Shown here in pieces: positions 22,440 to 50,672 of a DNA stretch of 64,000 nt. The stretch's first letter is position 1. Every line of letters starts with the position of its first letter. The stretch is from contig OZ220696.1 in assembly GCA_965116495.1 (NCBI GenBank), positions 992,001 to 1,056,000 of the forward strand. The letters are read 5' to 3'. Origin of the DNA: Gammaproteobacteria bacterium (GTDB lineage Bacteria > Pseudomonadota > Gammaproteobacteria > Eutrophobiales > Eutrophobiaceae). Both the position numbers and the translations under genes were made by a program. The notes under the pieces were generated by a model. That model was not told the origin of the DNA and ran no database searches. It was given only the letters and a program-made list of their open reading frames with translations.

Positions 22440-22579
22440 GTTTATTTCTCCTGTGTTAAGGACTAGCTCATAATTGGCTGTTGTGATTTAATTTGTGCTA
22501 CAGACCTGAGAATCGAGTTGAGCAAACTCCAATCTCACATACTAAAGAAAGATTGTACGTCCAGTATTTATTGCTTTTG

Positions 22580-22613
22580 ATGTCATTAATGACAGGTTTA
22601 TTATCGATTCAGG
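22580..22613 (-). promoter_or_regulatory. 34-bp island-C operator copy (racemase unit)
   Basis: + strand ATGTCATTAATGACAGGTTTATTATCGATTCAGG; -10 TACAAT at 22552-22557. Confidence 0.7.
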
Positions 22614-22702
22614 CACTTCAGTGATGTACATTCAGCAAGAATATCCATCTATGCCGAGACTGTGGTGGCAGTTGATTCCGGAGATTATTTATCGAGATAA
22701 AA

Positions 22703-23740
22703 TCAGGAAGACTTACGAAAACTTTTTGGCGTCGTACCAACATGTTTTTTGAAGGCGCGATGAAAATTTGACGCTTCGGAATAACCAACCAGGAGAGCTA
22801 CCTGTTCGATAGACAGGGATGTATCCGTCAGATACTGCATGGCAAAATGCATGCGTACTTCCTCTGATATTTTGCGGAATGATGTGTTTGCATCTGCAAG
22901 CCGACGGCGGAGATTCCTCGGAGTTGTATGTAGCTTTTCAGCTACTTCCACCAAATCAGGAAAACGCCCTGACGTATTAATCAGAATACGTCTTACAGTA
23001 TCGAGGATAGTTTCACCTTTACTTAATTTTCGCAGCAACTCGGCACATTGCTGCTCACAAATCTTGGCTGCCTGTTCATTGGCGAGGCTTAATTCCTTGT
23101 CGAGATATGAAACCGGAAATCGTAATTCATTCATATCTTGTGAGAAATGGATCGGACACTGAAATACCTCTTTATATTTTGCGACGTAGCTTTGCTCAGG
23201 CCAGGTCACGCGAATTTCGTTTATCCTTGCCGTATCTCCGAAATAAAATTTCAGAATTTGCCGCCATATAGCCAGCGTTACCTCAACGTCATACCGATAT
23301 GCTTCGCTCAAAAGTATCAAGGGTTCTATCGTGATGACAACGTCATTACCCTCCAGCCAACAGCGGATATGTAATACCGGGTCCGTTATTCTCTGGAAGC
23401 GTATGGCAATATCCATGGCTCTTCGAAGTGTGGGGCTGCTGAGCATTGCATAACCCATAATGCCCAGGTCGGCAATTGAAGTTCGCAACCCTACCAGCAA
23501 GCCCAACGCCGGTATATCAGCAATTTCACGGATTGCGCGCAGCGATTCGAAGTGCTGTTCAATCGTGTAGTACATATCGCTGTTTTCCAGTTCCTCCCTG
23601 TCCATACCGATACGTTTCAGAATGATATCGGTTTCCACGCCAAACTCGGACGCAACCTCAAGTAGACGTTTCATGTAAATGGTGGGAGTCAGTCCGGAAG
23701 ACTGCTTCAACCCGCTGTGACTATGCGCTGTCAGATTCAT
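22703..23740 (-). CDS. AraC-family regulator (OruR-like N-terminal domain)
   Basis: LGIMGYAMLSSPTL; C-terminal double HTH, VGYSEASNFHRAFKK..GTTP. Confidence 0.95.
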   Translation of the reverse strand: MNLTAHSHSGLKQSSGLTPTIYMKRLLEVASEFGVETDIILKRIGMDREELENSDMYYTIEQHFESLRAIREIADIPALGLLVGLRTSIADLGIMGYAMLSSPTLRRAMDIAIRFQRITDPVLHIRCWLEGNDVVITIEPLILLSEAYRYDVEVTLAIWRQILKFYFGDTARINEIRVTWPEQSYVAKYKEVFQCPIHFSQDMNELRFPVSYLDKELSLANEQAAKICEQQCAELLRKLSKGETILDTVRRILINTSGRFPDLVEVAEKLHTTPRNLRRRLADANTSFRKISEEVRMHFAMQYLTDTSLSIEQVALLVGYSEASNFHRAFKKHVGTTPKSFRKSS

Positions 23741-23829
23741 ACCTGAATCTGATTATAGACAATTTTTCCTTAAATGATAGAGCCGTGTCCTAAAGTGAGA
23801 GGTTTCCTGGATTGCAGGCGTTGTTTCAC

Positions 23830-24291
23830 TTATAACTCATCAATGCTGGGATAACCTTTTCCTGCCGTGGTAAATTCAACGATGTTGCCGAATGGGTCCC
23901 GACAATAAACCGCACTACCTCCCTCAGGAAAAATATACGGCGGATTCATTGGAATTCCTCCGGCCTTTATCAGGCGATCATACTCTACCTGTGCATCATC
24001 CACTTCAAATGCCAAGTGCCGTATTCCCGGAGCGTCTGCGCTGGGCTGGTGTCCTTCATTATCGGCAGCAGGCGATGTATATTGAAATAATTCCAGGTAT
24101 GTATTATTGCATTTCATAAGATATGCCCGCGCGGCAGAGTTTTCCAATCCGGTTATTTGGTCATATACTGGACTGGGGTTGTCCCAGGATAATTCCTCCA
24201 CTACTGCGAAACCCAGAATTTTTTCGTAAAATTCCCTGGCCTTCTCAAGATCCGGTACTACAATTGCCGGGTGATGGAAACCCTTAATCAT
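23830..24291 (-). CDS. VOC family protein (methylmalonyl-CoA epimerase-like)
   Basis: HHPAIVVPDL, LELFQY, HLAFEV, RDPFGNIVE. Confidence 0.9.
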   Translation of the reverse strand: MIKGFHHPAIVVPDLEKAREFYEKILGFAVVEELSWDNPSPVYDQITGLENSAARAYLMKCNNTYLELFQYTSPAADNEGHQPSADAPGIRHLAFEVDDAQVEYDRLIKAGGIPMNPPYIFPEGGSAVYCRDPFGNIVEFTTAGKGYPSIDEL

Positions 24292-48512: not shown

Positions 48513-50161
48513 GAGTAAATCACCTGTTCACTGAACCGTCTGAGTACGTTATGGGTTATTCTTTCTGTGAAGACATCACGTCGTTTAAGCCCAAGCGACC
48601 ACAAGCACGACCCCGCATTAACCACCTCGCCTTTTCCACGCCGGTAATGCACTACCATTCCGGAACTGTAGCGGACTTTCCTGAGATTTTCCGGACTATC
48701 ATCGCCATACAAGGCCTTGGCAACGATGCGGGCATCCTCGTTCAGCCACCAGACATTTGACAGTGGATTACCATGATCTTCTTCCAGTGTCACTGCCGGC
48801 GCCATGGCCAGAATTTCAATCTGATCAACCGGAGCGCCATCCTCACCTGTCGGATAAGGTAATCCTTCCTTGAAAGTGTAACTCAACCCGTCTACTTCAA
48901 ATCCGAAAATGCCGGCATCAGCGCCGAATACATCACCGTAGTAAAGATCGGTTCCAGCGAAAACCCAGTGGTTCGGACGGTACACGGTAAAACCGCCGGA
49001 ATGTCTCGGCGCCATCGCACCCATACGGGCATAAAGTCCTCGTGTGCCGTTTAAGCCCAAAGTGAGCGCTCCCGGGCGGCCCAGTACCCGATCATCCCAG
49101 ACACAGGTCAGCAGGTGCTTTTTCTCCGGATCATCACGAACCGGGTCCTGTTCGTGGGCCAGAAACTTGTATGAAACCTGGGTGTTTCCCTTGTCTTCCA
49201 GGCGGATTTGCCAGAAGAAATTACCGCCAAACCGTGCTACGCGGCCACCTCTGTCGACATATGCATCTATGGCATCACGCATGGGCGTAGACCAGTATTC
49301 ATCATGGCCTGCGATCACCACAGCACTATAATCATCCAGGTTAACGGTACCGAAATGCAGGTCATGCTGGGTCATATAATCCAACTGGTAACCTTCTTTT
49401 TCCGCCCATTTAACAAGCAAACTGTCGTATTCCGCATAGCTGCCGCCGACGTACCATTTGGAATATCCGTTACCCATAGCCCAACTGAAAAATGGAATAT
49501 CCACCGCCCAATCCGGGGGAATTTCCCGCTCATGACTAGCATGAGGAGCACCCTCAGGTAATCGCACACAGCCTCGATGCCAGGGGCGCTGGATGGAAAG
49601 CTCAGGCGAAAAACTCTTCTGATTATCTCCTGCTATTCCCTGATAAAAATTTGCTCCTCCCCATTCGTTATAGGCAATCCAGGTACTGGTCGCAAACAGC
49701 ATCAACAACCTGGCTTTATTCCGGTTGTCTCCAGCGGGCCGGATGATGAAGATATGGTGATGTTCTCGTGTGGCGCCCGTCCCATTTTCAACACGTGAAG
49801 TTACCACGTAAGGACCGGACTGCAGCCCCTCGGGAATAGTCCAGGTATGTGTTACCGGCCAACCTGCCCCCACTGCGTAGGCATTGTCCGGAGTAACCGG
49901 CATCGTGCCGGGCAATCCGGAAACTTCATATACTTTTTCAGTAACATATCCATCCCGAACTATTTCCAGGGAATATGTCTCAGCGCTGGCATAGACATGA
50001 AAATTTACCTCGTCCCCGGGGGCATAACTGATGTGGTCGGTATAGGTCCAGACTTCCAGGATTTCCGCATCGTTACTGGGGAATTCATACCAGTGACTGT
50101 CAGTGGCATAGTTGCCGGATTGGCCTATACGAAATCCGTATTGCTCCAGCGAGGGCGCCAT
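48509..50161 (-). CDS. N,N-dimethylformamidase large-subunit family protein
   Basis: TWIAYNEWGGANFY, GHDEYWS, GGN..WQIR, GFEVD, ITHNVL. Confidence 0.8.
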   Translation of the reverse strand: MAPSLEQYGFRIGQSGNYATDSHWYEFPSNDAEILEVWTYTDHISYAPGDEVNFHVYASAETYSLEIVRDGYVTEKVYEVSGLPGTMPVTPDNAYAVGAGWPVTHTWTIPEGLQSGPYVVTSRVENGTGATREHHHIFIIRPAGDNRNKARLLMLFATSTWIAYNEWGGANFYQGIAGDNQKSFSPELSIQRPWHRGCVRLPEGAPHASHEREIPPDWAVDIPFFSWAMGNGYSKWYVGGSYAEYDSLLVKWAEKEGYQLDYMTQHDLHFGTVNLDDYSAVVIAGHDEYWSTPMRDAIDAYVDRGGRVARFGGNFFWQIRLEDKGNTQVSYKFLAHEQDPVRDDPEKKHLLTCVWDDRVLGRPGALTLGLNGTRGLYARMGAMAPRHSGGFTVYRPNHWVFAGTDLYYGDVFGADAGIFGFEVDGLSYTFKEGLPYPTGEDGAPVDQIEILAMAPAVTLEEDHGNPLSNVWWLNEDARIVAKALYGDDSPENLRKVRYSSGMVVHYRRGKGEVVNAGSCLWSLGLKRRDVFTERITHNVLRRFSEQVIYS

Positions 50162-50163
50162 AA

Positions 50164-50571
50164 TCAAGCCGGCTTTCCCTCATCCATCGTTGCTTCCCTC
50201 CAGAGCAGATATTTCCCATCTTTTCCTCGTTTCAAGACTCCCTGGAAGCGACCCTTATCAAAAACTGTCTCCCCTCCCTGTCTTGGCGTCAATGCCAGGG
50301 TAAAACGGCCATTCACGAACAGAAAATCGCCGGCTTCAACAACAACGTCATCATGTACTTCGGCAAACCTCGCATCATACTGGGCCCAGATTTCGCGAAA
50401 CAGCTCGCGTGCCGCAGCGCGCCCTCCCAGTGTAGGGACACCATTGGACGTCAAGATAAAATCCTCAGCAAAATGATCCACCAGCCGCAAATCTGCGGCA
50501 TTATAGGCATCCCTTTCCGCCTTACGGTATTCTTCAAGCCCCTTAAGAGCCTCAGCAGATGCTTGTCTCAT
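50164..50571 (-). CDS. SnoaL/DUF4440 NTF2-like protein
   Basis: AYNAAD..HFAED..GRAA..GRF..KRGKDGKY. Confidence 0.75.
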   Translation of the reverse strand: MRQASAEALKGLEEYRKAERDAYNAADLRLVDHFAEDFILTSNGVPTLGGRAAARELFREIWAQYDARFAEVHDDVVVEAGDFLFVNGRFTLALTPRQGGETVFDKGRFQGVLKRGKDGKYLLWREATMDEGKPA

Positions 50572-50638
50572 GAGATAATATCAGAGAGTTTTATTTGTAA
50601 TTCAAGTTCAATTCTAGAAAGGTGTCGGTCTCAGTGCT

Positions 50639-50672
50639 ATGACCAAACCGGCTGTTAAACTGTCATTTACGG
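50639..50672 (-). promoter_or_regulatory. Operator copy (SnoaL-DMFase-GS unit)
   Basis: ATGACCAAACCGGCTGTTAAACTGTCATTTACGG; TAGAAT at 50611-50616. Confidence 0.55.

What the first reader, a model, noticed from the sequence alone, without database searches (positions are those of the whole stretch)
22552..50672. 34-bp motif at fixed spacing upstream of eight transcription units
Seen: copies start at 22580, 25898, 26946, 31407, 32057, 41443, 47054 and 50639 with + strand pattern ATG.C-N..-TATC..TT..G. Each starts 28 bp (29 in one case) from the start of a hexamer that reads TAnnnT on the minus strand (TACAAT, TATACT, TAGATT, TATACT, TAAACT, TAATAT, TATACT, TAGAAT). The two half-sites are about 21 bp apart and the proximal one overlaps -35. 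Known: this is class II AraC activator geometry. Inference: the AraC at 22703-23740 controls the whole island, tying resistance and catabolic genes together.
Basis: partly seen in the sequence, partly recalled or inferred. Interest (0 to 1): 0.72.

Follow-up and report, generated by a model that had tools for sequence, protein, structure and literature searches.

The report
AraC regulon on a catabolic island
Each of eight gene groups on a 30-kb inserted block is preceded by the same paired DNA repeat, likely the binding site of the block's own AraC-type activator: an ordinary kind of switch, but one that would turn on import, breakdown and an unusual ribosome-protection-like protein together.

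Summary
The motif is real. All 8 long gaps between island genes carry one; none of the 14 short gaps does. The site is two 15-bp direct repeats (TGGCCnnAAnTGAYA) 6 bp apart, ending at the predicted -35. This is the XylS/SphR layout and resembles the CdpR consensus.

The same site, with a -10-like hexamer at the same spacing, recurs beside homologues of this AraC in distant bacteria. One is a Colwelliaceae genome where this AraC is the only PF12625 protein.

The geometry is ordinary; the regulon appears new. The 'resistance' label is unproven. The Tet-like GTPase forms its own clade, lacks the C-terminal extension and the YSP loop III of TetM/TetO, and travels with this island. It may protect ribosomes from the imported substrate, which is unknown. 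No earlier scan note on this was found.

The parts
22552..22616 (-). Site 1 (direct repeat 22581-22616) plus -10-like TACAAT (22552-22557); heads racemase + double-VOC unit
25870..25934 (-). Site 2 plus TATACT (25870-25875); heads PLP decarboxylase - glyoxalase - araC unit
26918..26982 (-). Site 3 (weak; overlaps the end of the GPH symporter gene) plus TAGATT; heads the 240-aa double-VOC gene
31379..31443 (-). Site 4 plus TATACT; heads glyoxalase - TonB receptor - GPH symporter unit
32029..32093 (-). Site 5 plus TAAACT; heads the 121-aa VOC gene
41414..41479 (-). Site 6 plus TAATAT (23-nt gap); heads SDR - hydantoinase A/B - FAD oxidase - amidase - MFS unit
47026..47090 (-). Site 7 plus TATACT; heads TonB receptor - MFS - RPP-like GTPase unit
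50611..50675 (-). Site 8 (weak) plus TAGAAT; heads SnoaL - DMFase-like acylase - glutamine-synthetase-like unit
22703..23740 (-). AraC-family regulator, PF12625 + HTH_18 (CdpR/VirS/GliR/QhpR type), predicted reader of the sites
20857..22439 (-). Asp/Glu/hydantoin racemase (21573-22439) and 225-aa double-VOC protein (20857-21534)
23830..25824 (-). Glyoxalase-family protein (23830-24291) and LysA-fold PLP decarboxylase (24355-25824), the most constant neighbour of the AraC
26037..31954 (-). 240-aa VOC protein, GPH symporter, TonB-dependent receptor 1, glyoxalase, 121-aa VOC protein
32469..41297 (-). Bcr/CflA MFS, amidase, FAD-dependent oxidase, hydantoinase/oxoprolinase B and A, SDR
41492..43372 (-). 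Tet-RPP-family translational GTPase of a separate clade: no C-terminal extension, loop III KYDLGT; likely start at ATG 43372 (open frame reaches 43441)
43362..46968 (-). Bcr/CflA MFS and TonB-dependent receptor 2
47133..50571 (-). Glutamine-synthetase-like ligase, DMFA2_C acylase-like protein (nearest solved: N-acetyl-(R)-beta-phenylalanine acylase), SnoaL-like protein
20254..20340 (-). tRNA-Leu(taa), left boundary of the inserted block
51086..51156 (-). tRNA-Cys(gca), right boundary; an IS3 fragment lies at 50748-51227

Best explanation
The eight sites are direct repeats of a 15-bp half-site at a 21-bp period, likely bound head-to-tail by two subunits of the island's AraC-family protein, which would activate the weak sigma-70-type promoter just downstream once an unknown inducer is present. 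Shown: the sites, their spacing to a -10-like hexamer, their one-per-long-gap placement and their conservation with this AraC clade. Inferred: binding, activation by contact with RNA polymerase at -35, operon structure, and positive feedback (araC would be the last gene of the unit driven by site 2). The regulon would switch on uptake (two TonB receptors, one symporter), amide/lactam/amine breakdown enzymes, two MFS pumps and an RPP-like GTPase: a use-and-tolerate module for one amine- and amide-rich compound or compound class.
For: De novo recovery and gap placement. In same-genus orthologues, core columns are 96% identical (245 of 255) against 81% for other motif columns and 75% for the gap; the -10 T,A,T positions are 48 of 51. 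The window-trained matrix gives 11 hits >=14 bits in 124 kb of non-genus clade loci (8 with TAnnnT at gap 21-23) and 8 hits in 101 kb of sister loci (5 at gap 22; the other 3 are upstream frames of triple repeats). It gives 12 hits in 506 kb of distant-AraC loci, 0 with a -10. Column-permuted matrices give 0.2-1.2 hits. In Colwelliaceae bacterium 6441 (AraC 68% identical, GC 0.37, different gene order) sites follow gene orientation on both strands. There the best site has a -10 at 11 of 18 island leaders against 2 of 22 flank leaders, p 0.0007. That genome (100% complete) has one PF12625 protein, the island AraC. L030-L032 carry three tandem half-sites at a 21-bp period upstream of the AraC homologue. 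Direct symmetry beats inverted in 16 sites from other lineages (cosine 0.74 against 0.46). The nearest solved relative is 5CHH, CdpR. Its consensus and SphR's fit best at the expected register: 63% and 59% against <=46% at other registers.
Against: No binding, start-site or expression data. The own genome has three other PF12625 proteins; no site scored above 7.5 within 1.5 kb of them, but cross-reading is not excluded. In the 8 window sites alone, direct and inverted symmetry tie (0.49 against 0.50). 3 of 11 clade hits (L027, L028) lack TAnnnT at gap 21-23. 7 of 18 Colwelliaceae leaders, including its araC, have no convincing site. L009 (AraC 95% identical, at a contig end, different neighbours) has no site above 8.2. 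Sites from other lineages were picked with the window matrix, so the reciprocal ranking (window sites ranked 1-5, 12, 72 and 123 of 8.7 million) is partly circular. Several loci are near-duplicates (L025/026, L027/028, L037/038).
Confidence: 0.85

Rival explanations
1. The sites are read by another AraC paralogue or a host regulator, and the island AraC is a bystander or only one of several readers.
For: Three other PF12625 proteins exist in the own genome. Similar half-sites are shared across this subfamily.
Against: The Colwelliaceae genome has only the island PF12625 protein yet carries the sites. With a combined matrix, 8 of the 9 genome hits >=12 bits that have a -10 are the island sites. 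No sites lie near the paralogues.
Confidence: 0.07
2. The element is a palindromic operator (TGAYA-N7-TGKCM or TGTCA-N4-TGACA) for a symmetric dimer, for example a repressor, not a direct repeat.
For: Inverted and direct symmetry tie in the 8 window sites. Site 1 holds a perfect TGTCA-N4-TGACA. A further TGACA-N7-TGTCA lies upstream of both TonB-receptor sites.
Against: Direct symmetry is clearly stronger in 16 sites from other lineages, and triple repeats keep the 21-bp period. Orientation is fixed relative to the -10 on both strands. No other regulator family was matched among the island ORFs.
Confidence: 0.05
3. The AraC binds these sites but mainly represses or has mixed roles, as CdpR does, rather than acting as a -35-adjacent activator.
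For: CdpR activates pqsH and represses itself (PMC4847859, passages). The conserved T after the site could be part of a -35.
Against: The -35 positions are poor matches to TTGACA: only 1 of the 8 hexamer pairs (site 2) reached the scan's 9-of-12 threshold. The site sits upstream of, not over, the -10.
Confidence: 0.03

Closest known systems
XylS/Pm operator (PMC5481539, passages read)
   Same: Two 15-bp direct repeats at a 21-bp period next to -35; AraC/XylS two-HTH reader; catabolic context.
   Different: Different half-site (XylS boxes TGCA and GGTA) and a different N-terminal domain; here eight promoters on one island rather than one.
SphR regulon of Pseudomonas aeruginosa (PMC3900636, passages read)
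   Same: Two direct repeats of TGNCCSNNRNNSNCC 6-8 bp apart, weak -35, small local regulon for handling a toxic compound; best fit at the same register.
   Different: The 3' box reads GAYA here; genes and probably ligand differ. That SphR carries PF12625 is recalled, not tested here.
CdpR / VqsM / GliR (PF12625-type AraC proteins; PMC4847859, PMC8151288, passages read; PDB 5CHH)
   Same: 5CHH is the nearest solved relative (E 5e-19; profile 4e-25). The CdpR consensus, reverse-complemented to TGGCCGNWNNNRWCY, matches the half-site.
   Different: Low sequence identity. The published motifs are single 15-mers from ChIP-seq of virulence or lipid regulators, not a paired site at eight island promoters.
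Tet(M)/Tet(O)/TetB(P)/Otr(A) ribosomal protection proteins
   Same: Five-domain translational GTPase inside the Tet-RPP group (100/100 support).
   Different: At most 40% identical to any RPP on 72,556 plasmids; no C-terminal extension; loops II and III are different and conserved; sits in a catabolic operon behind a TonB receptor.

Membership tests
AraC/XylS direct-repeat activator site | Two direct-repeat half-sites at about 21-bp period | tested here: met
   Period 21 is the best direct offset in 8 window sites and 16 others; triple repeats in L030-L032.
AraC/XylS direct-repeat activator site | Fixed orientation and spacing, proximal half-site at the -35 region | tested here: met
   22-nt gap to TAnnnT in 7 of 8, 23 in 1; holds on both strands in Colwelliaceae; overlap 0-1 bp with a predicted -35. 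Rests on predicted, not mapped, promoters.
AraC/XylS direct-repeat activator site | A cognate two-HTH AraC protein that co-occurs with the sites | tested here: met
   HTH_18 + PF12625; the sole PF12625 protein in the Colwelliaceae genome; sites with -10 in clade and sister loci, not in controls.
AraC/XylS direct-repeat activator site | Direct binding and ligand-dependent activation; class II contact with sigma-70 | not testable with these tools
   Needs EMSA, footprinting, reporters and start-site mapping.
CdpR/VqsM/SphR-type motif | TGGCC-type 5' box and G/S-containing 3' box in a 15-mer | tested here: met
   Best register fits 63% (CdpR) and 59% (SphR) of informative positions; VqsM only 46%.
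Tetracycline ribosomal protection proteins | EF-G-like GTPase grouping with Tet proteins rather than EF-G | tested here: met
   Tree, (midpoint root; long-branch warning for one EF-G paralogue); best families tet_protect and Otr(A).
Tetracycline ribosomal protection proteins | Domain IV loop III of the YYSPVST type | tested here: not met
   All 16 clade members in the alignment read [KR]YD[LM]GT, one residue longer; loop III is functionally central (PMC4750697).
Tetracycline ribosomal protection proteins | C-terminal extension with helix | tested here: not met
   16 of 16 clade members end a few residues after domain V; TetM, TetO, TetB(P) and 7 other RPP-like rows have the extension.
Tetracycline ribosomal protection proteins | NCBIfam curated cut-off | tested here: not met
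   568 of 775 bits for NF012153; lower for the others.
Tetracycline ribosomal protection proteins | Confers tetracycline resistance | not testable with these tools
   Needs expression in a laboratory strain.

The most novel reading that the evidence does not exclude
The regulon is an 'eat the antibiotic' module. The AraC senses a natural ribosome-inhibiting compound that is not a tetracycline. It switches on TonB import and amide/amine catabolism together with a dedicated ribosomal protection GTPase whose rebuilt domain IV loops and missing C-terminal helix dislodge that compound. This would be a new specificity class of ribosomal protection protein, and the promoter sites give a ready biosensor to find the compound.
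Probability: 0.3. Interest if true: 0.75.

Novelty: new member of a known kind. Interest (0 to 1): 0.43.

Why it matters
The switch itself is textbook. Its value is as a handle. It ties 22 genes into one predicted regulon and shows that the Tet-like GTPase is co-regulated with uptake and breakdown rather than being a stray resistance gene. It also gives a direct assay (AraC plus a site-reporter) to screen for the unknown inducer. If the GTPase protects against a non-tetracycline compound, it widens what ribosomal protection proteins do. It also warns that databases calling this clade 'TetM/TetW/TetO/TetS family' may overcount tetracycline resistance in environmental genomes.

Tried and rejected
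Chance or AT-richness: rejected. Members outside the island: the best outside hits (genome 1198805, 868963) have no -10 at the right gap; with a combined matrix only 1 of the 9 hits >=12 bits with a -10 lies off the island, at 12.1 bits. Pattern search was one N short and is void. The corrected strict pattern gave 7 matches in the own genome (6 on the island) but 13 in the AT-rich Colwelliaceae genome (4 on the island; control 6), so it does not discriminate there. The generic sigma-70 scan found promoter-like sites at chance level. Expression: no RNA holder listed. Wider genome searches with the AraC profile: 6 of 126 in the order, 1 of 151 in the Colwelliaceae genome's family, 10 of 401 in the phylum; 8 of those 10 are 30-36% relatives with no site >=10 bits nearby. 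Substrate: nearest solved structures were generic (diaminopimelate decarboxylases; a beta-phenylalanine acylase at E 5e-13), so no compound could be named. The fold search of the GTPase model listed EF-G structures and added nothing. The clade-size estimate rests on word-based searches only. Paper searches for this island or GTPase clade found nothing relevant; the library lacks most subscription journals.
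Full report
Setting. The window is from an unnamed gammaproteobacterial genome (G000, 4.34 Mb). Twenty-two genes on the minus strand lie between tRNA-Cys (51086-51156) and tRNA-Leu (20254-20340). In 14 of 20 relatives' pgsA loci, tRNA-Gly, -Cys and -Leu lie together within 1.5 kb of pgsA; 2 show Gly and Cys only and 4 show none. So this 30.7-kb block is an insertion. The AraC was found in 4 of 22 other genomes of the genus and in 0 of the 38 more distant genomes of that search. 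It sits at different places, beside tmRNA or tRNA-Ser in the two copies of G022. The block encodes two TonB receptors, a GPH symporter, two Bcr/CflA MFS proteins, an amidase, hydantoinase A/B, an FAD oxidase, an SDR, a glutamine-synthetase-like ligase, a DMFase-like protein, SnoaL, a LysA-fold decarboxylase, a racemase, five VOC-type proteins, a Tet-like GTPase and one AraC protein.

Observation. A Gibbs search blind to them found exactly these eight, with information content 33.9 against 26.3 +/- 0.5 in 14 shuffles (fewer restarts for shuffles). Every gap of 164 bp or more holds one site (8 of 8); no gap of 115 bp or less does (0 of 14). Two sites, 26946 and 50639, are weak in leave-one-out scans. 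The two TonB-receptor promoters look duplicated (57 of 100 flank bases).

Anatomy. Read on the transcribed strand, the site is 15 bp + 6 bp + 15 bp, half-site TGGCCnnAAnTGAYA, then a conserved T, then 22 nt to TAnnnT. With a 17-bp spacer that T is the first base of the -35, so the site abuts it. Among same-genus orthologues, core columns are better kept (96%) than other motif columns (81%) or the gap (75%) (17 orthologous sites at 6 of the 8 promoters). The half-site is pseudo-palindromic: in the eight window sites direct and inverted readings tie, but in 16 sites from other lineages the direct reading wins, 0.74 to 0.46.

Who reads it. The AraC belongs to a small clade: 22 clusters at 51-91% identity, then a drop to 41%. 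In Colwelliaceae bacterium 6441 a rearranged, larger version of the island surrounds a 68% homologue. Sites there point with the genes on both strands and keep the -10 spacing. Strong sites occur at 5 of 18 island leaders and 0 of 22 flank leaders; a -10 follows the best site at 11 of 18 against 2 of 22. That genome has a single PF12625 protein, the island AraC. Across metagenome loci the window matrix finds sites with a -10 near clade and sister homologues but none with a -10 near distant AraC proteins (8 of 11, 5 of 8, 0 of 12; 7 of those 12 control hits are one repeated kin locus with a related repeat). Three sister loci have three tandem half-sites upstream of the AraC gene itself. Against this: three paralogues exist in the own genome, L009 and G148 show no site, 3 clade hits lack the -10, and selection with the window matrix makes the reciprocal test partly circular.

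Mechanism. Shown: sites, spacing, placement, conservation. Inferred from family knowledge: two AraC subunits bind head-to-tail and recruit RNA polymerase at promoters with poor -35 boxes. The araC gene follows the decarboxylase and glyoxalase genes at gaps of 63 and 89 bp, so site 2 would give positive feedback; in Colwelliaceae the araC leader has no site, so this is not universal. The inducer is unknown. The enzyme set (amidase, acylase-like, lactamase-like, gamma-glutamyl ligase-like, amine oxidase-like, decarboxylase, racemase; in other loci also a C26 peptidase, class III aminotransferase, aldehyde dehydrogenase and beta-keto acid cleavage enzyme) points to a nitrogen-rich compound with amide and amine groups. 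This is inference.

Comparison with known systems. XylS binds two 15-bp direct repeats at Pm (PMC5481539, passages). SphR binds two repeats of TGNCCSNNRNNSNCC 6-8 bp apart (PMC3900636, passages). The CdpR and VqsM consensus strings are quoted in PMC8151288 (passages). The nearest solved relative, 5CHH, is named in the CdpR paper (PMC4847859, passages). PMC4750697 (passages) gives the role of TetM loop III and the C-terminal helix. Motif logos and the SphR promoter figure are images and were not seen; no supplements were read. All other papers were seen as search listings only. The site is therefore a new member of a known kind. Searches turned up no paper on this regulator, island or GTPase clade.

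The 'resistance' gene. The GTPase behind site 7 groups with Tet proteins but forms its own clade (16 rows, 100/100; the 16 were picked from the window protein and 39 clade hits). All 16 lack the C-terminal extension, and all share loop II [IVL]Y[QHFY]KF[MVI]KQ[IL]P and loop III [KR]YD[LM]GT where TetM/TetO have YYSPVST. The model ends in a strand with no terminal helix. Identity to RPP genes on plasmids is at most 40%. It lies on the same island as the AraC in G000, G010, G020, both G022 copies, the Colwelliaceae genome and L028, and two accession numbers away in one more assembly. Nine distinct longest-contig lengths are shared between the two clades' clusters, an indirect proxy. Exceptions: G006 has a broken AraC and no GTPase match; the fragmented G007 has two GTPases and no AraC match. 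In the window, Colwelliaceae and L028 it follows a TonB receptor with a site upstream (weak in L028). Self-protection against the imported substrate is the simplest reading but is untested. I put the non-tetracycline version at 0.3.

Verdict. Observation confirmed. AraC regulon likely (0.85). Ordinary geometry, new regulon; interest 0.43, carried mostly by the co-regulated GTPase clade.

Noticed in passing
window 41492-43372 (-): RPP-like GTPase clade without C-terminal extension and with its own conserved domain IV loops, linked to this island; named TetM/TetW/TetO/TetS family in public records.
   Followed up: yes
window 31449-31467 and about 47096-47114: A second inverted repeat, TTGACA-N7-TGTCA, lies 9 bp upstream of the 34-mer at both TonB-receptor promoters. 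It is kept in 4 of 5 same-genus orthologues but was not seen in Colwelliaceae or L028. It may be a second regulator's site or a degenerate third half-site.
   Followed up: partly
window 20857-21534, 26037-26759, 31589-31954: Three paralogous VOC-like proteins (five domains, 34-42% identical) with no Pfam match; atlas neighbours are unnamed VOC clusters. They could be ligand-binding or detoxifying proteins.
   Followed up: partly
L019:4347-6789 (G006): The AraC homologue is split by a 1.4-kb insertion; of the island only the glyoxalase, decarboxylase and one intact site were found nearby.
   Followed up: no
L021-L024 (G022): Two diverged copies of the island in one genome, with GTPases 66% and 90% identical to the window's while the AraC genes are both 99%: a sign of gene exchange between island variants.
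   Followed up: no
L087-L096; L132, L135, L137: Related direct repeats occur near more distant AraC proteins, without the 22-nt -10 spacing, so the half-site type is shared across the subfamily.
   Followed up: partly
window 16451-19900 (+): Three tandem tyrosine recombinase genes (RIT-element-like; name recalled) just beyond tRNA-Leu, with IS4-like fragments.
   Followed up: no
window 55528-57420 (+); 59313-61463 (-): A PPC-domain protein with RTX calcium-binding repeats; a PP2C phosphatase beside a Ser/Thr kinase that appears to be in pieces; several PIN and ParE toxin-antitoxin genes nearby.
   Followed up: no
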